Source of the DNA: a virus
UHGV virus genome: UHGV-0117107
Direction: 5' to 3' (one strand)
Length of the DNA stretch: 17,495 nucleotides
Below the pieces are notes generated by a model. It was not told the origin of the DNA. It made no database searches and was given only the letters and a program-made list of their open reading frames with translations. Shown here piece after piece: positions 1-8,399 of this stretch. The stretch's first letter is position 1, and each line of letters starts with the position of its first letter. The position numbers and the translations under genes were made by a program.

Positions 1-2429
1 CCCGCTATTTTTAGCAATGTTCCGGCTTTAAGATTCTGTTGCCATGATTCCAAACTTCCCTTAACGCCATCAAGTATTTTTTTAACGTTATCTAAGAAAC
101 TTATTTTTTCGAATGGATCAGATAATCCTTTAATAAAGTTTCTTATGGCTAGTAATATTCCAGCAAACAATCCGCTGTTTAATACTTCGAAAATATCGCC
201 TTTACCAAAGGCATCGGCTATCATATTACCTATATCGGAAAAAGCTTCTCCGATGGCCGCGCCAACCGACTTTATAGTGTTCCATAGACCGGAAAAGAAG
301 CCAAGAAAACCTTGAAGTGTAGGAGAAATCTTAAAACTCTCAATAAGTGAGCGTCCAAACTCTGCTATTTTTGAAATCCCGTTGCTAAGAAATCCAACAA
401 TTTTATCAACTGCGTCGCCAAACAGATTTCCTTCTACTATGGAGTCTCTCACATTCGAGATAAAATCTCCAAAAGAACTCGTTGCATCCAGTATTCCTCC
501 ACCAAGTCCGGTGAAGTTTCCAATAATATCTAGAGCGCCTTTTCCAACAGCTTTAAAAGCCTCTATAACAATATCGATAGCGGAAAAGATTCCTTTAAAT
601 GTAGATTTTATTTTAGATGCAGCGCCTTCACTTACTTTTAAAGTATCAGTGAAAGCTTTGAATCTATCAATCATACTTACTACTTGGTCGACTGTAGTAG
701 GTGGAAATATCTCTCTAAAAGCTTCTTTTATCGGTTTTATTATATCTCCAAGGAATTTGAATATATTTTTCAAACCCTCTATAATTTTTTCTCTACCGCC
801 AAGCTCGGTTATTCCATCGATAAGACCATCTATGTTGTCTTTTAATTTATTCGTAGATTCGTTTGCTTCATTTAGCGCTTTTAATGTAGCGTCATCAACG
901 ATACCTGTTATTTCTAAATCGTTAGCTTCCTGAAAAGCTTTAATAGCTGACTCTGTGGCACTTCCGAAAATTCCATCAGCACCAGAATCGCCAATATCAT
1001 AGTTAAGGCTTTGTAATGCTTTTTGTACTTTTGTTACGTCGTCTCCTGTATTACCTTTCGATAAACCGGCTTCGACTCCACTTAAATCTACAAGTTCGCC
1101 TTTTAATCCGCTAACAGCTTCTTTTAAAATATCAGAAGATATGGCACCAGATTGAAAAGCTTTTTCTAGAGAACCATATTTTTTTATGATCTCGTCCATA
1201 TTAACGCCATGGTCCTCAGCAATCGATCTAACTTTTTCCTCAAAAGTATCGGTTTCTACACCAGCTTCATTTATTTTTTTTACAAGCTTATCCCAGTTAG
1301 AAGACATCGCGCCTTCCAATAATTCGTTACGAGATTTCGCTGATGATTCAACCATCTTTCCAATGGTATCTGAAATTCCAGTGAACAATTCTTTGGAGTC
1401 TTCAAAATCACCGACAAGTATTCTCCAAGTTTGACCCCATCCAGATTGGAGAGATTCTTTTACCGTATCTATCAGCTGTGTGAATGTTTTTACTTTTGTA
1501 GCAGCGTCTTCAGCGTCCTTCGCTAAAGCCATAATATCGTTTGCTTGAGATTCGCTATAACCTTGGGCAATAAGATCGGCCTTACTATATGCGCCAGACA
1601 ATTGGTTAAGAGTTTCAGTTAATACCTCGGTCGTTAACCATTCACCTTTTGTTAGGCTTTCTCTAAAGCTGCCATATGTATCAATAGCTTGTTTAGCGCC
1701 TGTTCCCAAAAGTTCAGACGTTCTAACAAGTGCGTCCTGAAATACCTTACCACCCATACCGGCATTAACAACTGAGTTCCAGTCCATAAGACTAACTTTA
1801 CCTGCCGCCAATGCCTGAGAAAGCTGATACATCGCAGTAGATGCCTGTTGAGAAGTTGATCCAGAAACTGCGGCCAAGTTCGCAATACCTTTAATAGCAT
1901 TAACTGAGGTATCAAGTTTTACACCAGCTGCTGTAAACGTACCGATATTACGAGTCATTTCCGTAAAATTGTAAATCGTCTTATCGGCATATGTATTTAG
2001 CTCATCTAAAGCCTTATTTACAATATCAACATTAGTGCCTTCCTGCCTTGTATTGGATAGAATTGTCTGAATAGCACCAATCTGAGTTTCGTATTCTTGG
2101 AAACCGCTTTTAACCGGATCTATAGTTAATGCTGATATCATACGTTTACCAGTGTTAACAGCCTGGTTAGTGATGTTTGCTAAAGCAGTTACACCAGCGA
2201 CCTGTAGTGCTGAAAATTTAGCCTGAACTGTCTCTATACCACTGCTCATTCCTGCAAAGCTAACACCTTTAGCAGCCTTACCGACATTCTCCAACCCTTT
2301 GGAGGCACCAGATAGATTTAACTTTTGTTTGAGCTTATCGAGAGTTGACATACTGGTTGCGACTCCGCTCTCAAACTGCTTATTGTCGAACCGCATCTCC
2401 AAGACTCTGTTGTCAATAGTCGTACTCAT
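1..2429 (-). CDS. Phage tail tape measure protein, 5' portion only (first ~809 codons; gene continues past window start); carries an internal peptidoglycan-binding-like domain
   Basis: ATG at 2427-2429 (minus) preceded by GGAGGGAGG; reading frame stays open to position 1 (checked at both ends and mid-gene), which explains its absence from the ORF track. Translation starts MSTTIDNRVLEMRFDNKQFESG and contains TIYNFTEMTRNIGTFTAAGVKLDTSVNAIKG and LAAGKVSLMDWNSVVNAGMGG, motifs recalled as typical of siphovirus tape measure proteins. The start overlaps the upstream stop as ATGA. Confidence 0.85.
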   Translation of the reverse strand, partial: MSTTIDNRVLEMRFDNKQFESGVATSMSTLDKLKQKLNLSGASKGLENVGKAAKGVSFAGMSSGIETVQAKFSALQVAGVTALANITNQAVNTGKRMISALTIDPVKSGFQEYETQIGAIQTILSNTRQEGTNVDIVNKALDELNTYADKTIYNFTEMTRNIGTFTAAGVKLDTSVNAIKGIANLAAVSGSTSQQASTAMYQLSQALAAGKVSLMDWNSVVNAGMGGKVFQDALVRTSELLGTGAKQAIDTYGSFRESLTKGEWLTTEVLTETLNQLSGAYSKADLIAQGYSESQANDIMALAKDAEDAATKVKTFTQLIDTVKESLQSGWGQTWRILVGDFEDSKELFTGISDTIGKMVESSAKSRNELLEGAMSSNWDKLVKKINEAGVETDTFEEKVRSIAEDHGVNMDEIIKKYGSLEKAFQSGAISSDILKEAVSGLKGELVDLSGVEAGLSKGNTGDDVTKVQKALQSLNYDIGDSGADGIFGSATESAIKAFQEANDLEITGIVDDATLKALNEANESTNKLKDNIDGLIDGITELGGREKIIEGLKNIFKFLGDIIKPIKEAFREIFPPTTVDQVVSMIDRFKAFTDTLKVSEGAASKIKSTFKGIFSAIDIVIEAFKAVGKGALDIIGNFTGLGGGILDATSSFGDFISNVRDSIVEGNLFGDAVDKIVGFLSNGISKIAEFGRSLIESFKISPTLQGFLGFFSGLWNTIKSVGAAIGEAFSDIGNMIADAFGKGDIFEVLNSGLFAGILLAIRNFIKGLSDPFEKISFLDNVKKILDGVKGSLESWQQNLKAGTLLKIA

Positions 2430-2803
2430 ATCTTAGTAACCTCCCTCCAGGCCTCTTCTGCCATTTTGTCAAAAATAGGCTGAATCGCAGGATTGATATA
2501 ATCTCTCCCTTGAACCCAGCCTCCAGTACCAGTCCCATGACCATATTGCAAAATAATAGCGATTGGTACACCTTTATTAATGTTAGAGTTTGTAAAAGTA
2601 ATCTTTGCTGATCCGGATGTATTCTCAATTTCGTATCCCCACGATTTAGCAGTCAATCCAGATTCTACAGGAGTAGCAGACATAAGAGCAGCCACCCCTT
2701 CCCGACCATATTTGTCGAGTACGCTGAGCTTTGCATTCCCTTTAAGTTTCTCAAAATATCGAGTAACTTTAGAGAAGTCTCCCTTATGTCTGAAACTAAT
2801 CAT
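2426..2803 (-). CDS. HK97 gp10-family-like head-tail joining/tail component protein (125 aa)
   Basis: ORF track 2426..2803; ATG preceded by AAAGGAGAAAGATCAAA. Translation has PVESGLTAKSW and LQYGHGTGTGGWVQGRDYINPAIQPIFDKMAEEAW, resembling the PVDTG...EFGT...P-(F/Y)-L-x-P-A pattern recalled for the HK97 gp10 family. TGA stop overlaps the tape measure ATG. Confidence 0.6.
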   Translation of the reverse strand: MISFRHKGDFSKVTRYFEKLKGNAKLSVLDKYGREGVAALMSATPVESGLTAKSWGYEIENTSGSAKITFTNSNINKGVPIAIILQYGHGTGTGGWVQGRDYINPAIQPIFDKMAEEAWREVTKI

Positions 2804-2818
2804 TTTGATCTTTCTCCT

Positions 2819-4237
2819 TTACAGTAGCTCGTTAACTCGATCCTGAATTTTCTGAATCATGTTGTGATCGTATCCAGCTTTTGCGAGGGCATTAATTCGT
2901 GCATCTCCATTACCGTATTTTCCGGCAATGACATCACGGGCTACATTATCAATCACTATCTGATTTACTTTCTTCTGCACAGTGTCTGGATTATAACCAG
3001 CTTTCTTGAGAGCAGACACACGAGCATCACCATTACCCCATTTACCGGCGATTACTTCTTTAGCAATTTCATCGATAGATTTGGTCGGTTTTGGCGTAGA
3101 TGTAGGTTTAGATGTTGGTGCTGGTGTGGAAGAACTTTTCGCATATTTTGGTCTAGCAAAACCACGAATCATACCCCAGCCAACCGGAATGGTACGTCTT
3201 GCTACTGCTTCTCCTCTGTTACCTTCAATCGCTGTGATTTGTCCGTTTGAAACAGATTCCACATACCCGATATGATCAGAATATCCGTCGTTTGGCTGAG
3301 TCTTATCATCCCAGTTATAAACAATTACATCACCAGGTTTCGGAGTAATGGTGCCGTCCTCGACCCAAATGCCTTTCTGCTTAAAAATCTTAATATGTTC
3401 CTCACAACCAACTTCTGTACCGATGAGATCGACTGCTCCGGATTTGATAGCTGCTGCTGATACTGTACAATCACACCATTCATCATTAGGTTTAATAGCG
3501 TATCCGCGAGCCAAAGGTTTGTGAGAATTATAGATGTTAAGAATCTCAATATATTTACCGTTAGCTTCAGAATAACCGAGCCAACTTCTCATAACATTAA
3601 GAACGTCCTGTGCTGTTACACCCAATTCCGTATCCTCCTGTTTTCCGTAAAAATAGTTCATGTCGACTTTACCTTTAATACCGCCTACAGTTCCGGAACT
3701 CGTATACTGATGAACCAAACAACCGTAATCTGCTTTTCCGTTATAATCAGCGAGCCAGAATTTGTACTGTTTAATCAGATCATGATTATACCAATTTCGA
3801 TAGTAGTCGATATTTGCGTAGATTCCAGCTTTGTATCCCTGAGATTCTACGTACTCACAAAAGATTCTTGTAAAGTTATTACATTCATTTTTACCAAGTC
3901 TCACACCTTTTGCAGCTGCTTTCTTGACTGTGTCATATTCGAAATCTGCGAAGATGATTGTGTTTTTATCAAGACCAGCTTTTCTAACAACATCAACACA
4001 GAATTTTGCTTCGTCAAGTGCGCCCTGTTCGTTTAAGGCATAAATAAAATGGTAAGTTCCTATAATCGGAATCTTGTTGTTTTTACACCCATTGACATAC
4101 TCATAGAATTTTGAATCTACTGTCTTCCTGTAAGAAGATCTAAGAATCGCGAACTCTATTCCGGAGGACTTGACTTTAGAAAAATCTACATCTCCCTGCC
4201 AATAGCTGATATCAATTCCTTTCTTCACAATCATCAT
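2819..4237 (-). CDS. Modular peptidoglycan hydrolase (endolysin-type): N-terminal GH25 muramidase, central CHAP/NlpC-P60-like cysteine peptidase, Ser/Thr/Pro linker, two C-terminal CW_7 (Cpl-7-type) cell-wall-binding repeats
   Basis: 472-aa ORF. N-terminus GIDISYWQGDVDFSKVKSSGIEFAILR and later HQYTSSGTVGGIKGKVDMNYFYG match the GH25 signature; central WCDCTVSAAAIKSG ... DHIGYVESV ... TAIEGN fits a Cys/His/Asn CHAP-like domain; linker KSSSTPAPTSKPTSTPKPTKS; two repeats EVIAGKWGNGDARVSALKKAGYNPDTVQKKVN and DVIAGKYGNGDARINALAKAGYDHNMIQKIQ. Start ATG overlaps upstream stop (ATGA). Confidence 0.88.
   Translation of the reverse strand: MMIVKKGIDISYWQGDVDFSKVKSSGIEFAILRSSYRKTVDSKFYEYVNGCKNNKIPIIGTYHFIYALNEQGALDEAKFCVDVVRKAGLDKNTIIFADFEYDTVKKAAAKGVRLGKNECNNFTRIFCEYVESQGYKAGIYANIDYYRNWYNHDLIKQYKFWLADYNGKADYGCLVHQYTSSGTVGGIKGKVDMNYFYGKQEDTELGVTAQDVLNVMRSWLGYSEANGKYIEILNIYNSHKPLARGYAIKPNDEWCDCTVSAAAIKSGAVDLIGTEVGCEEHIKIFKQKGIWVEDGTITPKPGDVIVYNWDDKTQPNDGYSDHIGYVESVSNGQITAIEGNRGEAVARRTIPVGWGMIRGFARPKYAKSSSTPAPTSKPTSTPKPTKSIDEIAKEVIAGKWGNGDARVSALKKAGYNPDTVQKKVNQIVIDNVARDVIAGKYGNGDARINALAKAGYDHNMIQKIQDRVNELL
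2822..3080 (-). repeat. Two tandem CW_7-type cell-wall-binding repeat units (coding, C-terminus of the lysin)
   Basis: Two ~40-aa protein repeats with the (V/I)IAGK(W/Y)GNGDAR...AGY core; the underlying DNA segments are visibly similar (approx 2860-2950 vs 2980-3070). Confidence 0.7.
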
Positions 4238-4794
4238 CCTTTCGAATTGAATTTCTTTCTTCGAGCTGCATTCATTTCAGCATAACGACTCATTAATTCT
4301 CGCTTACTTGTCTGTTTAGGTGGCTCATTGTGAGCACTACATACCCTTATCAAAGTAATAAGTCTATTAAGATGCCATTTTTCACACTCAAATGGAATAT
4401 TGTTTGCAATCATCCAATAATATATAAGCTCTGACGTTATGATCTCTCGATTTTTCTTTCCAGATCTTCTGTCATTGATAGTAGTTGCTGTCATTGGAGC
4501 ATAAATATAGTCAGTTATTTGCTTTAAGTTATCTTCACTTAACCGACCATACACACTTGGATCAACATTCTTATTGAGTGTCATACACCTTATGTAATCT
4601 ATTGTTTCTTCAATGGTTTTCTCTTTATTTGTATAAAAAGGTTTACACCATTTTGATTCCCATTTTGAAAGAGAGATGAGTGAATGTTCTAATTGTAGTG
4701 TCTGCTCTTTCTGAGCTGGCACGGGTATAAACACTTGATTTCCTTCATCCCATAATTCGTCAGCTTCTCTAGCAGGTACTATAATCTGAATCAT
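4234..4794 (-). CDS. Putative tail assembly protein (Gp15-like, the family found immediately upstream of tape measure genes in Firmicutes siphophages)
   Basis: 186-aa ORF, ATG preceded by GGAGGGATGAGTA; no transmembrane segment; sits between the chaperone-like gene and the tail operon. Family assignment is from memory of the pattern and position only. Confidence 0.45.
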   Translation of the reverse strand: MIQIIVPAREADELWDEGNQVFIPVPAQKEQTLQLEHSLISLSKWESKWCKPFYTNKEKTIEETIDYIRCMTLNKNVDPSVYGRLSEDNLKQITDYIYAPMTATTINDRRSGKKNREIITSELIYYWMIANNIPFECEKWHLNRLITLIRVCSAHNEPPKQTSKRELMSRYAEMNAARRKKFNSKG

Positions 4795-4823
4795 TACTCA
4801 TCCCTCCATTGTGTTCGAATTTA

Positions 4824-5237
4824 TTAAGCTCCTGGAAGCAGATTCTTTGAATTAGCTTCCTGTGCAACATCAGCCGGAACGATGCCGTTAATAAATGCCG
4901 CTGCTGCTTCTGCGTCTGTAGCAAGTTCCATGAAGAGTGTGGAATAAGCTTCTGTCTGTGAAAACTTTCTTGACAGTGGTCTTCCGTCCTCATCAAGTTT
5001 CATGAAACCTTTACCATCCGGAGCCTTTTCTCCATATGCTTTAAGAATAAGATCTTTAAAGATAGCTACGATTGTCGGAGTATCCTGTGCTGCCACGACT
5101 TTCTCAATCATCTCAGCGAATCCACCAACTGTAGATAATTCCATCTCCATAATTTCTGCTTTAGAAAGGTTGAAGTAATATGTATCTTCTCTTTCTACTC
5201 CGTTGTAATCTGTGTATTTAATAGCTTTTTTTAACAT
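4824..5237 (-). CDS. Putative tail assembly chaperone (137 aa)
   Basis: First gene downstream of the major tail protein and its terminator; ATG preceded by AAAGGAGAACAAC; acidic C-terminus (ELATDAEAAAAFINGIVPADVAQEA) typical of tail chaperones. Assignment by position and composition. Confidence 0.5.
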   Translation of the reverse strand: MLKKAIKYTDYNGVEREDTYYFNLSKAEIMEMELSTVGGFAEMIEKVVAAQDTPTIVAIFKDLILKAYGEKAPDGKGFMKLDEDGRPLSRKFSQTEAYSTLFMELATDAEAAAAFINGIVPADVAQEANSKNLLPGA

Positions 5238-5273: not shown

Positions 5274-5308
5274 AAAAAAAAAGACCCCACCTATTGCTAA
5301 GCGGGGCC
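5274..5308 (-). terminator. Rho-independent terminator for the minus strand, immediately after the major tail protein gene
   Basis: In minus-strand RNA: GGCCCCGC (5301-5308), 10-nt loop UUAGCAAUAG, GUGGGGUC (5283-5290) giving an 8-bp GC-rich stem with two G-U wobbles, followed by a run of 9 U (plus-strand A run 5274-5282). On the plus strand the same hairpin would have A-C mismatches and no downstream T run. Confidence 0.6.
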
Positions 5309-5333
5309 TATCGTTATTCCATTACTTAGTTAC

Positions 5334-6653: not shown

Positions 6654-8399
6654 TTAGGCAGTTTCTTTCACGAATTCAAGAGCTACTGCGGAATACGGTT
6701 TAACAAGTGTACCGGAGCAACGTGTCTCCATAAGATACTTCTGCTTGTTGTAATCGATATCGAAATCATCGAAGAAGTTGATTTCTCCACCCTTATCTGT
6801 ACCTACGTTGTAATCTTTAAGATTTACATAGATACCAGCAAGCTCATATGTCTTATTTTCATCGTCTGTTCTTGTAAGACCTTCCATTACCGGAACCGGA
6901 ACGATTTCTCTTACGCGAAGAGATGCTGCAAGTTTCTGTACGCTATCATAGATAACACGTCCGTTTGTATCTTCAATGAGCAAGCAATCTGTAAGCATAT
7001 CCTCAGACATGAACATATCAGGGTTGCCAGATCCTTTATAATTCTTTCTGGATTTGATGCAAGCTTTGATGAATGCCTTAGCTTTCTCTTCAGCAGTAGC
7101 GGAATCGCTTACATTGATAGCTGCTTTAACTGTGAAAAGATCTTCCATCTTCCAGATAGGTCTGATGCAGTCCTCATTGATTTTATCGTTAGCCTCTTCA
7201 ACCGGATCTCTTCCATCACCGATAAGGAATGCGCGAGCAAGTTCCTCATCAAGCATCATACGAACTTCTCTCTTCAGCCATGGAAGAATATCGAAATCTG
7301 TAATATCAAGCATGTCATCGCGATCTAATGCCTGTTTCTTGTATACAGTTGTTGGATTTGTTACACGTTTGAGAAGCTTAAATACTTCTTCAATTTTAAG
7401 TTTGCCTTTCTGGTATCCCTTTGCTCTAGCCTGTGCTGCTGTGATGTCAGCAAAGATAGTTTTGATACGGGAGAACGGTGTGTGATGTACTCCGCCAAGT
7501 ACTTTTGATACCCAATCGTCATTACGTTTGATAAATTCCGGTTCATTGTTAAGATTCTTTGCATCCGGGAATAAGATGTCAATGTCTGTGATACCATGAG
7601 CAAGCACTGCCTCTTTAAGAGAACCTGAGCGTTTCGCATCTTCGAAAATCGCAGTCATCTCGGAGTGTGTAAGCACATCATCTGCCATAGGGGTTTCATT
7701 GTCGAATACGTTGTGTTTCATATTTTTGTTTCCTCCTTCATTTTCATCATCTTCTTCGGTTTCAACACCAGCATCTTCTAATGCCTGTCCGATCATAGCG
7801 TACACAACAGTTTTCTGTTTCTCAGAAAGAGTGTTGAATACATCAGCTACAGTTTCGTCCTTATTTTCTTCGGCATTATGTTTTTTGGTTTCTTCTGCCA
7901 TTTTTTCTTCTCCTTTCTCAGAAGTATCTGCGTGGAACAATGACTCCACATTTTCGATATATTCGCCTGAGCTGATATATCCCTCTTCATAAGAATCTTC
8001 GCCATGCATCATGACAGACTCTATTACTGCGCCTGGATTAGCACCAGCTAAAACCAAACTAAGCTCACGAATGACTCCGTGAACTACATTACTTCCCTGC
8101 TGTTTAAGTCTGTTGGCATATATGGAAAATCTATTCACATCACCATGCTGAACCAGCAATTTAGCATTCTGCCCTGATTCCGTATCGTTAAATGTGCAAT
8201 ATGCATACACACCTTCGTCCCTGTTTTCCAGCAAGGCATGACCGAGCACTTCATCTACGCTATTATGCTGATGATTCCAAACTAACGGTACAGTTTCACC
8301 ATCGCACTCTTTGAATGCATCTTTCATGATGACTCTACCGTCCGCACACAGCATGTCAGCTTTAGTAGCCCAGCCAGAACAATCATATGACTTAGCCAT
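6654..8399 (-). CDS. Prohead protease - scaffold-like linker - HK97-fold major capsid protein fusion (581 aa)
   Basis: N-terminal ~140 aa carry prohead serine protease-like motifs (WNHQHNSVDEVLGH, RFSIYANRL, ELSLVLAGANPGAVI); residues ~150-330 are an acidic, charged linker (EDSYEEGY...ETEEDDENEGG); the C-terminal ~250 aa end in LAGIYVNLKDYNVGTDKGGEINFFDDFDIDYNKQKYLMETRCSGTLVKPYSAVALEF, resembling HK97-family capsid C-termini. ATG preceded by AAAAGGAGGCAGAAAATCAAA. Confidence 0.8.
   Translation of the reverse strand: MAKSYDCSGWATKADMLCADGRVIMKDAFKECDGETVPLVWNHQHNSVDEVLGHALLENRDEGVYAYCTFNDTESGQNAKLLVQHGDVNRFSIYANRLKQQGSNVVHGVIRELSLVLAGANPGAVIESVMMHGEDSYEEGYISSGEYIENVESLFHADTSEKGEEKMAEETKKHNAEENKDETVADVFNTLSEKQKTVVYAMIGQALEDAGVETEEDDENEGGNKNMKHNVFDNETPMADDVLTHSEMTAIFEDAKRSGSLKEAVLAHGITDIDILFPDAKNLNNEPEFIKRNDDWVSKVLGGVHHTPFSRIKTIFADITAAQARAKGYQKGKLKIEEVFKLLKRVTNPTTVYKKQALDRDDMLDITDFDILPWLKREVRMMLDEELARAFLIGDGRDPVEEANDKINEDCIRPIWKMEDLFTVKAAINVSDSATAEEKAKAFIKACIKSRKNYKGSGNPDMFMSEDMLTDCLLIEDTNGRVIYDSVQKLAASLRVREIVPVPVMEGLTRTDDENKTYELAGIYVNLKDYNVGTDKGGEINFFDDFDIDYNKQKYLMETRCSGTLVKPYSAVALEFVKETA

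What the first reader, a model, noticed from the sequence alone, without database searches (positions are those of the whole stretch)
860..1060. Peptidoglycan-binding-like domain inside the tape measure protein
Within the tape measure ORF the translation reads GNTGDDVTKVQKALQSLNYDIGDSGADGIFGSATESAIKAFQEANDLEITGIVDDATLKALNEA, matching the two-half pattern of peptidoglycan-binding domain 1 (G..V..LQ..L...DG.FG..T..A...FQ...L...G.VD..T...L). Tape measure proteins sometimes carry wall-active domains used during genome ejection; a wall-binding domain without a catalytic one, alongside a separate lysin gene in the same operon, suggests a divided penetration apparatus.
Basis: partly seen in the sequence, partly recalled or inferred. 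Interest (0 to 1): 0.5.

Follow-up and report, generated by a model that had tools for sequence, protein, structure and literature searches.

The report
Wall-binding domain inside phage tape measure
The tail tape measure protein of this gut phage really does carry a peptidoglycan-binding domain with no enzyme attached, and related phages carry other wall-binding domains (CW_7, LysM) or nothing at the same spot, so it is probably a swappable wall anchor used during DNA injection.

Summary
Observation confirmed. The quoted peptide is aa 459-522 of a tape measure protein (TMP) on the minus strand (window 1055..864). The TMP gene runs 2429..3 and is cut by the window end.

- **Domain identity.** It matches Pfam PG_binding_1 over the whole profile (E=5e-19, 68.6 bits against a cut-off of 23). 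It is predicted with high confidence as the three-helix fold and superposes on solved PG-binding domains at 0.5-1.8 Å.
- **No catalytic domain.** Contigs whose DNA is identical over the shared part give the full TMP, 2515 aa. Pfam, PHROGs and PDB sequence searches find no catalytic domain in it.
- **Variable slot.** The domain sits in a slot between two conserved TMP motifs. Among 190 relatives, mostly prophages of gut Clostridia, the slot is empty (90), holds a helical subdomain only (46), or holds PG_binding_1 (29), CW_7 (20) or LysM (3). Slot content does not track the flanking sequence.
- **Best reading (inferred).** A non-enzymatic wall anchor for the ejected TMP.
- **"Divided penetration apparatus".** Only weakly supported. 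The neighbouring GH25+CHAP+CW_7 gene looks like an ordinary endolysin placed unusually inside the tail module.

I rate it a new variant of a known theme (wall-active TMPs), of moderate interest.

The parts
3..2429 (-). Tape measure protein gene, N-terminal 809 codons; cut by the window end. The full protein is 2515 aa in contigs L001/L004.
   Evidence: PF20155 TMP_3 and phrog_4372. DNA identical over 2427 nt to L001, where the ORF is 2515 aa.
1581..2021 (-). TMP_3 core (aa 137-283), inside the highly conserved N-terminal module (aa 1-372).
   Evidence: Pfam; invariant columns in alignment A1.
810..1313 (-). Variable slot (aa 373-540) between the conserved motifs ...ARNxLLxGA and GGRExLIES.
   Evidence: Alignment A1. 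Slot length and content surveyed in 190 relatives.
1110..1298 (-). N-helical subdomain of the slot (aa ~378-440). Conserved in most filled slots; no known fold match.
   Evidence: AF2 helices with pLDDT 75-83. Foldseek gave only PG-binding-domain matches. Present in 87 of 100 filled slots among the 190 relatives.
864..1055 (-). PG_binding_1 domain (aa 459-522; Pfam envelope aa 461-519 = window 873-1049).
   Evidence: Pfam E=5.4e-19, full profile. PDB sequence hits to endolysin 7rum, phiKZ gp144, SleB and CtpB. AF2 pLDDT 87-93 with three helices. Foldseek 6tci TMt 0.88/rmsd 1.0, 5tv7 rmsd 0.5.
2426..2803 (-). Neck1 / tail completion gene (125 aa); overlaps the TMP start by 4 nt.
   Evidence: phrog_5 E=1e-13; homologous position annotated 'neck protein Ne1' in FP_oengus.
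2819..4237 (-). Lysin gene (472 aa): GH25 muramidase + CHAP + two CW_7 repeats. Context gene, not shown to act together with the TMP.
   Evidence: Pfam; endolysin PHROGs only; three CW_7 repeats in L001.
4234..5237 (-). Tail assembly chaperone gene (4824-5237, Phage_TAC_17) and the 186-aa phrog_4338 gene (4234-4794) upstream of the lysin.

Best explanation
Window 864-1055 (minus strand) encodes a genuine, folded PG_binding_1 module of about 64 aa. It is inserted in a variable slot (aa 373-540) of a very long siphophage tape measure protein that has no wall-cleaving domain. The phage belongs to a group that infects or lysogenises gut Clostridia (Lachnospiraceae/Oscillospiraceae). The proposed mechanism is inferred, not shown. 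At infection the TMP leaves the tail with its C-terminus first. Its hydrophobic block (aa ~800-1375) goes to the cytoplasmic membrane. The N-terminal third, carrying the PG-binding module, is then left within the thick Gram-positive wall, where it grips peptidoglycan and anchors or orients the TMP conduit for DNA passage. The module is exchangeable: related TMPs carry CW_7 or LysM at the same place, or nothing, so it would tune the injection step to the host's wall.
For: Shown:
- Full-length PF01471 match, E=5.4e-19.
- The family signature (DG..G..T..A.K.FQ...G...T) is invariant across 22 TMP homologues that are only 37-61% identical to the window over this 194-aa segment.
- The AF2 model has three helices at pLDDT 87-93. 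It superposes on SleB N-domain, C. difficile 5tv7, phiKZ gp144 and 1lbu at rmsd 0.5-2.6 Å.
- The full TMP (2515 aa, DNA identical over the shared 2427 nt) has only TMP_3 and PG_binding_1 in Pfam. PHROGs gives only TMP and tail families (plus two weak unknown-function hits) for the rest, and PDB sequence search adds only a C-terminal match to the baseplate-embedded end of phage 80alpha TMP gp57.
- A hydrophobic block at aa ~800-1375 lies C-terminal to the module.
- Slot survey of 190 relatives: 90 empty, 46 helical only, 29 PG_binding_1, 20 CW_7, 3 LysM, 2 other. None of the 120 listed homologues has a catalytic Pfam domain.
- Three unrelated folds that share only peptidoglycan binding occupy the same position. 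In P0017, LysM replaces PG_binding_1 between conserved flanks.
- Slot content is intermixed within clusters of both flanks.
- Relatives are prophages in Blautia faecis, Hungatella, [Ruminococcus] torques, Clostridium leptum and Faecalibacterium.

Established knowledge: TMPs are ejected into the envelope and can carry wall-active domains (TM4, T5, phiIPLA35; PMC6116005). LysM combined with catalytic domains occurs in Bacillus phage TMPs (PMC6145125).
Against: - No binding experiment exists, and the PG_binding_1 fold is also used for protein-protein contacts (matrix metalloproteinase pro-domains, from my own knowledge).
- 90 of 190 relatives lack the slot entirely, so the module is dispensable for TMP function.
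- Three folded domains of about 2.5 nm would not fit side by side in a tail lumen of about 4 nm (my own geometric estimate). The domain would have to be staggered or unfolded in the virion.
- The exit order and final topology of the TMP are assumed from other siphophages.
- The sequence downstream of the slot is much more divergent than the N-terminal module (32-44% against 66-83%). Part of the apparent 'swapping' may therefore reflect recombination of the whole downstream region rather than of the slot alone.
Confidence: 0.55

Rival explanations
1. Divided penetration apparatus. The TMP supplies wall binding and the neighbouring GH25+CHAP+CW_7 protein is a virion-associated lysin that supplies cleavage during entry.
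For: The lysin gene sits inside the tail module, between the chaperone genes and Neck1/TMP. It is on the same strand, with overlapping or 15-nt junctions and no terminator-like site. A lysin occupies the same slot in MT835495. The TMP has no catalytic domain of its own.
Against: The lysin has the classical endolysin layout with its own CW_7 binding repeats and hits only endolysin PHROGs. In MT835495, holin-like genes follow the tail fibres without an adjacent lysin, so the tail-module lysin is probably that phage's endolysin. FP_oengus has the same tail synteny without a lysin there, and its endolysin and holin lie after the tail genes. The slot module and the lysin vary independently: MT835495 has the lysin but an empty TMP slot.
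Confidence: 0.15
2. The PG_binding_1-like fold is used here as a protein-protein or assembly module and not to bind peptidoglycan. It could mediate TMP oligomerisation, dock chaperones or tail completion proteins, or simply add length.
For: The domain lies in the head-proximal third of the TMP. Solved structures with this fold include proteins in which it is not known to bind the wall (CtpB hits). The slot is dispensable in 90 of 190 relatives.
Against: Orthologous TMPs have LysM or CW_7 at the same site. These are unrelated folds whose only common property is peptidoglycan binding. The family signature residues are invariant.
Confidence: 0.15
3. Neutral passenger. The domain is a fragment captured from a lysin gene by recombination, carried along in a recombination-prone region of the TMP and not selected for any function.
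For: TMPs are mosaic and repetitive. The slot is a gain/loss hot spot. The closest sequence matches of the domain among deposited phages are endolysin binding domains.
Against: The domain is intact over the full profile, confidently folded, and conserved across TMPs only 37-61% identical to the window over this segment, with invariant signature residues. Three independent kinds of wall-binding module were recruited to the same site.
Confidence: 0.1

Closest known systems
Tape measure proteins with embedded peptidoglycan hydrolase domains (mycobacteriophage TM4 Rpf-like motif, T5 pb2, S. aureus phiIPLA35 muramidase; reviewed in PMC6116005)
   Same: A wall-directed module embedded within a siphophage TMP, presumably acting when the TMP is ejected into the envelope.
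   Different: Here the module only binds. No catalytic domain was detected in the 2515-aa protein or in any of the 120 listed homologues.
Bacillus phage TMPs with LysM plus peptidase M23 or lytic transglycosylase (Basilisk gp47; B. megaterium phages Staley/Slash; PMC6145125)
   Same: A recognised peptidoglycan-binding module inside a TMP of a phage of Gram-positive hosts.
   Different: In those TMPs the binding module accompanies an enzyme domain. Here it stands alone, is PG_binding_1 rather than LysM, and sits in a slot that alternates between PG_binding_1, CW_7, LysM and empty.
Cell-wall-binding domains of endolysins (PG_binding_1 of phiKZ gp144/KZ144, 3bkh; endolysin 7rum; CW_7 of Cpl-7-type lysins)
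   Same: Same domain family, fold and signature residues. The same kind of modular shuffling of binding domains.
   Different: The host protein is a structural tail protein, not a lysis enzyme. The domain is internal, flanked by long helical TMP sequence, rather than terminal.
Oengusvirus-like phages (Faecalibacterium phage FP_oengus, Bifidobacterium phage BitterVaud1; uncultured MT835495)
   Same: Same structural-module synteny and an orthologous very long TMP: 40-59% identity over the 809 aa, and 2019-2314 aa in total.
   Different: Their TMP slot has only the helical subdomain (FP_oengus, BitterVaud1) or is empty (MT835495). MT835495 instead has a LysM at the N-terminus of the tail protein that follows the TMP.

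Membership tests
Pfam PF01471 PG_binding_1 | Profile HMM score above the curated gathering threshold, covering the whole domain | tested here: met
   68.6 bits against 23; E=5.4e-19; profile 1-57/57 at aa 461-519.
Pfam PF01471 PG_binding_1 | Three-helix bundle fold superposable on solved members | tested here: met
   AF2 helices at model residues 95-106, 122-134 and 145 onward, pLDDT 87-93. Foldseek: 6tci TMt 0.88, rmsd 1.0; 5tv7 rmsd 0.5; 3bkh rmsd 1.8; 1lbu rmsd 2.6; probability 1.00.
Pfam PF01471 PG_binding_1 | Conserved signature D-G-(hydrophobic)2-G-x-x-T ... A-(V/I)-K-x-F-Q ... G | tested here: met
   ADGIFGSATESAIKAFQ is present. D, G, G, T, A, K, F, Q and G are invariant in 22 TMP homologues. 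Aligned with endolysin 7rum and effector 4nso.
Pfam PF01471 PG_binding_1 | Binds peptidoglycan | not testable with these tools
   Needs a sacculus pull-down. The indirect support is that LysM or CW_7 replaces it in orthologues.
Siphophage tape measure protein | Sequence membership in TMP families | tested here: met
   PF20155 E=2.8e-15; phrog_4372 E=5e-235. The C-terminus matches 80alpha TMP gp57 (6v8i), E=3.8e-13.
Siphophage tape measure protein | Genomic position after the tail tube and chaperone genes and before the distal tail genes | tested here: met
   Order: Phage_TAC_17, phrog_4338, lysin, Neck1, TMP, then fn3-bearing tail protein(s). The lysin and Neck1 genes between chaperone and TMP are atypical.
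Siphophage tape measure protein | Sets tail length and occupies the tail lumen | not testable with these tools
   No virion data. Length polymorphism (2515 against 2387 aa) was seen between near-identical contigs.
TMP-borne virion-associated peptidoglycan hydrolase (TM4/T5/phiIPLA35 type) | A catalytic muralytic domain within the TMP | tested here: not met
   Pfam at E<=0.1, PHROGs and PDB sequence search of the full 2515-aa protein give no hydrolase or peptidase domain. None appears among the 120 homologues' precomputed Pfam hits. Remote-homology methods (HHpred) were not run on the whole protein.
Canonical endolysin (neighbouring gene 2819-4237) | Catalytic domain(s) plus a C-terminal wall-binding domain | tested here: met
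   GH25 E=2e-29, CHAP E=2e-8, CW_7 x2 E=2e-34; endolysin PHROGs.
Canonical endolysin (neighbouring gene 2819-4237) | Adjacent holin / lysis cassette | tested here: inconclusive
   Among minus-strand ORFs of the window, the only one with a TM-like segment is the distant 181-aa DUF7211 gene at 15580-16125, so there is no holin candidate near the lysin. In the relative MT835495, holin-like genes lie after the tail fibres, away from the lysin. The rest of this phage's genome was not available.

The most novel reading that the evidence does not exclude
Non-catalytic peptidoglycan-binding modules embedded in the TMP form a distinct, exchangeable 'wall-anchor' device of siphophages of Gram-positive gut Clostridia. 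After ejection the TMP is pinned to the wall by PG_binding_1, CW_7 or LysM instead of cutting it. The choice of module would act as a post-adsorption host-range determinant matched to wall chemistry. It would also be a genuine, datable case of domain shuffling in TMPs, which a systematic study could not confirm (bioRxiv 10.1101/2022.12.27.521992).
Probability: 0.3. Interest if true: 0.6.

Novelty: new variant of a known kind. Interest (0 to 1): 0.4.

Why it matters
How siphophages cross the thick wall of Gram-positive bacteria is poorly understood. The known TMP-borne wall modules are enzymes. A binding-only module would point to an anchoring step in genome delivery that needs no enzyme in the TMP. 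That reading gains weight because the module is repeatedly exchanged for other wall-binding folds at one site in phages of abundant gut Clostridia. It also offers a simple genetic handle: swapping or deleting the slot in an inducible Blautia or Faecalibacterium prophage would test how TMP topology and wall chemistry affect host range. In practical terms, these modules are a source of wall-binding domains specific for hard-to-target gut anaerobes.

Tried and rejected
- Megablast of the TMP region against deposited phages found nothing. Only protein-level relatives exist, 59.5% identity at best.
- I looked for a hidden catalytic domain in the full TMP with Pfam at a lenient E-value, PHROGs on three sub-segments and PDB sequence search. 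None was found.
- Literature searches for PG_binding_1/PF01471 or LysM in tape measure proteins returned only endolysin contexts or TMPs with LysM plus an enzyme. I found no description of a binding-only PG_binding_1 in a TMP.
- tblastn of the slot against deposited phages gave 364 records. The 60 listed are endolysins, baseplate lysozymes or unannotated records, none annotated as a TMP except BitterVaud1's helical part.
- The promising Anaerostipes phage hit turned out to be the C-terminus of a 314-aa protein at the end of the late operon, probably an endolysin and not a TMP.
- Foldseek gave no fold match for the N-helical subdomain of the slot.
- I considered simple vertical inheritance of the PG_binding_1 slot. 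I rejected it because slot types are intermixed within clusters of both flanks. The caveat is that the downstream flank is itself highly divergent.
- I considered that the 186-aa gene upstream of the lysin might be a holin. I rejected this: it has no TM segments and is a conserved phrog_4338 tail-module gene that FP_oengus also has without a lysin.
Full report
**Where the window comes from.** The window is the ENA metagenome contig ERZ1755062 NODE_792 (17,495 b). All its genes are on the minus strand, and they form a phage head and tail module. In transcription order they are:
- a connector protein;
- four genes with the DUF7211 motif;
- TerL;
- a sequestin-like gene;
- a collagen-repeat protein;
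- the portal protein;
- a protease-capsid fusion;
- DUF7253;
- a 221-aa presumptive tail tube protein;
- Phage_TAC_17;
- a phrog_4338 protein;
- a lysin;
- a Neck1/tail completion protein;
- the tape measure protein (TMP).

**The observation.** The minus-strand ORF starting at 2429 runs to base 3 without a stop, giving 809 codons. It contains the quoted peptide exactly, at aa 459-522, which is window 1055..864. It is a TMP: PF20155 TMP_3 at aa 137-283 (E=2.8e-15) and phrog_4372 (E=5e-235). The peptide matches PF01471 PG_binding_1 over the entire profile (1-57/57) with E=5.4e-19 and 68.6 bits, against a gathering cut-off of 23. Only the strand was left unstated.

**Is it a real domain?** Three lines of evidence agree.
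- Sequence search against solved structures finds the PG-binding domains of an endolysin (7rum, E=3.5e-7), phiKZ gp144 (3bkh), SleB, CtpB and the Streptomyces DD-peptidase 1lbu. The DG-hydrophobic-hydrophobic-G..T and A.K.FQ signatures align.
- An AlphaFold2 model of aa 369-562, built on 22 homologous TMP segments, gives three helices at pLDDT 87-93 for the domain.
- Foldseek superposes the model on the SleB N-domain (6tci, TM 0.88 normalised to the target, rmsd 1.0 Å), C. difficile 5tv7 (0.5 Å), phiKZ gp144 (1.8 Å) and 1lbu (2.6 Å), each with probability 1.00. The E-values are modest (1.6e-3 to 5e-2) because the domain is only a third of the query model.

The signature residues are invariant across the 22 TMP homologues, which are only 37-61% identical to the window over this 194-aa segment.

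**The rest of the TMP.** The window truncates the protein. Looking up the neighbouring 125-aa protein found longer contigs (L001 and L004) in which the TMP is 2515 aa. The shared 2427 nt are 100% identical.
- Pfam on the full protein gives only TMP_3 and PG_binding_1.
- PHROGs on the remaining three segments gives only TMP and tail families, plus two weak hits to families of unknown function.
- PDB sequence search adds only a match of aa 2193-2400 to the baseplate-embedded C-terminal part of phage 80alpha TMP gp57 (6v8i, E=3.8e-13).
- A strongly hydrophobic block with many TM-like segments spans aa ~800-1375, starting just where the window ends.

So 'binding domain without a catalytic one' holds at the sensitivity of these methods.

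**Comparative anatomy.** This is the main new result. The domain lies in a slot (aa 373-540) between two conserved motifs...ARNxLLxGA and GGRExLIES (alignment A1). I extracted this slot from 189 relatives, which with the window makes 190 sequences. They are 120 metagenomic homologues, 80 loci from bacterial genomes or MAGs, and three deposited phages (203 in all), minus the 14 that lacked one of the two anchors. Slot content was as follows:

| Slot content | Sequences |
|---|---|
| No slot (direct junction) | 90 |
| Helical subdomain only (~113-127 aa), as in FP_oengus and BitterVaud1 | 46 |
| Helical subdomain + PG_binding_1 | 29 |
| Single CW_7 repeat (11 alone, 9 with the helical subdomain) | 20 |
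| LysM | 3 |
| Long helical inserts | 2 |

- The precomputed Pfam hits of the homologues agree with these classes. None of the 120 shows a catalytic domain.
- In P0017, LysM replaces PG_binding_1 between well-conserved flanks.
- Slot type does not follow the flanks. Clusters at 75% identity or more in the N-terminal 372 aa mix PG_binding_1, CW_7, LysM, helical-only and empty forms.
- The window's nearest N-terminal relative (P0051, 83%) carries CW_7, while the nearest PG_binding_1 form is 74% identical.
- In the 150 aa after the slot, the window is closest to a slot-less TMP (55%), ahead of another PG_binding_1 TMP (51%).
- Caveat: everything downstream of aa 372 is much more divergent than the N-terminal module (32-44% against 66-83%). 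Some exchanges may therefore involve larger downstream segments and not the slot alone.

**Hosts.** Relatives are prophages in cultured Clostridia: Blautia faecis DFI.3.66 (which has the PG_binding_1 slot), Hungatella hathewayi, [Ruminococcus] torques, Enterocloster, Lachnospira, Clostridium leptum and Faecalibacterium. Many Clostridia MAGs carry them too. The few Bacteroidota bins are probably mis-binned phage contigs (my inference). Deposited relatives infect Faecalibacterium and Bifidobacterium. I infer a Gram-positive gut host.

**Mechanism (inferred).** Established knowledge is that siphophage TMPs lie in the tail lumen with the C-terminus at the tip, are expelled at infection, insert into the envelope, and may carry muralytic domains (PMC6116005). 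The 80alpha-like C-terminus here fits that orientation. If the C-terminus and the hydrophobic block go first to the membrane, the N-terminal third would remain in the wall layer. Recruitment of three unrelated folds whose only shared property is peptidoglycan binding argues that wall binding is the selected function. I therefore favour a wall anchor or orienting device for the ejected TMP conduit (confidence about 0.55). Open problems:
- Half of the relatives do without the slot.
- Three folded copies would not fit side by side in a lumen of about 4 nm (my estimate). The domain must therefore be staggered or unfolded in the virion.
- Nothing here shows binding.

**The lysin and the 'divided apparatus'.** The gene at 2819-4237 encodes GH25 + CHAP + two CW_7 repeats. 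It is co-directional and tightly packed with its neighbours. Its start overlaps the stop of the upstream gene by 4 nt. There are 15 nt between its stop and the Neck1 start, and the Neck1 stop overlaps the TMP start by 4 nt. No terminator-like site lies between it and the TMP. Its place inside the tail module is unusual. FP_oengus has the same synteny without it, and keeps its endolysin and holin after the tail genes.

Several points favour a relocated endolysin over a virion-borne entry enzyme.
- It is a textbook endolysin architecture and hits only endolysin PHROGs.
- MT835495 has a different lysin (Amidase_2 + SH3_3) in the same slot, yet an empty TMP slot.
- MT835495's holin-like genes follow the tail fibres with no lysin beside them.

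The question stays open without virion proteomics.

**Comparison with what is known.** Wall-active TMPs are well known (TM4, T5 pb2, phiIPLA35; PMC6116005). LysM together with M23 or transglycosylase domains has been noted in Bacillus phage TMPs (PMC6145125). I found no paper describing a binding-only PG_binding_1 in a TMP, or an alternating PG_binding_1/CW_7/LysM slot. A systematic study of phage protein mosaicism reported that it could not confirm genuine recent domain mosaicism in TMPs (bioRxiv 10.1101/2022.12.27.521992). The domain annotation itself is already present in precomputed Pfam hits for these metagenomic proteins.

**Verdict.** The feature is real. I class it as a new variant of a known kind, of moderate interest (0.4).

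Noticed in passing
window 2819-4237 (-); L001 8417-9985; L007 17386-18348: A lysin gene sits inside the tail module between the chaperone genes and Neck1/TMP. Here it has two CW_7 repeats (472 aa). Contigs L001/L002, whose TMP is identical or nearly identical, have three repeats (522 aa). MT835495 has an unrelated Amidase_2+SH3_3 lysin in the same slot, and FP_oengus has none there.
   Followed up: partly
L001 10375-17919 vs L002 10375-17535: The full TMP is 2515 aa, which predicts a tail of roughly 375 nm at 0.15 nm per residue (rule of thumb, my knowledge). A nearly identical contig lacks aa 1588-1715, a 128-aa stretch inside the region of repeats containing LQSSLEPIGGVISWFKGRDDLGTFG. That implies tail-length polymorphism within one phage population.
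   Followed up: partly
L007 (MT835495) 25687-28347: In the closest deposited relative the TMP slot is empty, but the 887-aa tail protein right after the TMP begins with a LysM domain (aa 4-50). The wall-binding module appears at a different place in the tail machinery.
   Followed up: partly
window 1110-1298 (-), TMP aa ~378-440: A conserved helical subdomain precedes the wall-binding module in most filled slots. It is predicted at pLDDT 75-83 and has no Pfam or PDB fold match, so its function is unknown.
   Followed up: partly
window 12762-16125 (-): Four consecutive genes (190, 378, 352 and 181 aa) each begin with the short DUF7211 motif. They lie between a connector gene and TerL. This looks like a paralogous family of unknown role.
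   Followed up: no
window 6654-8399 (-): A single 581-aa ORF combines weak Peptidase_S78 (prohead protease) and HK97-type capsid matches, so protease and capsid are fused. The same gene is 645 aa in L001/L002.
   Followed up: no
window 10035-10895 (-): A collagen-triple-helix-repeat protein (198 aa) and a crAss001_48/sequestin-like protein (81 aa) lie between TerL and the portal gene.
   Followed up: no
window 5282-5309 (-): A strong terminator-like hairpin (12 pairs, T-run) lies between the 221-aa presumptive tail tube gene and the tail assembly chaperone gene. It is possibly an attenuator that lowers expression of the downstream tail genes.
   Followed up: no
L007 38151-38745: In MT835495 two small genes follow the tail fibre gene: a 99-aa protein with two TM-like segments, and a 100-aa protein whose N-terminal hydrophobic stretch I noted by eye (it fell below the scan threshold). 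They are holin-like, and no lysin gene lies beside them.
   Followed up: partly
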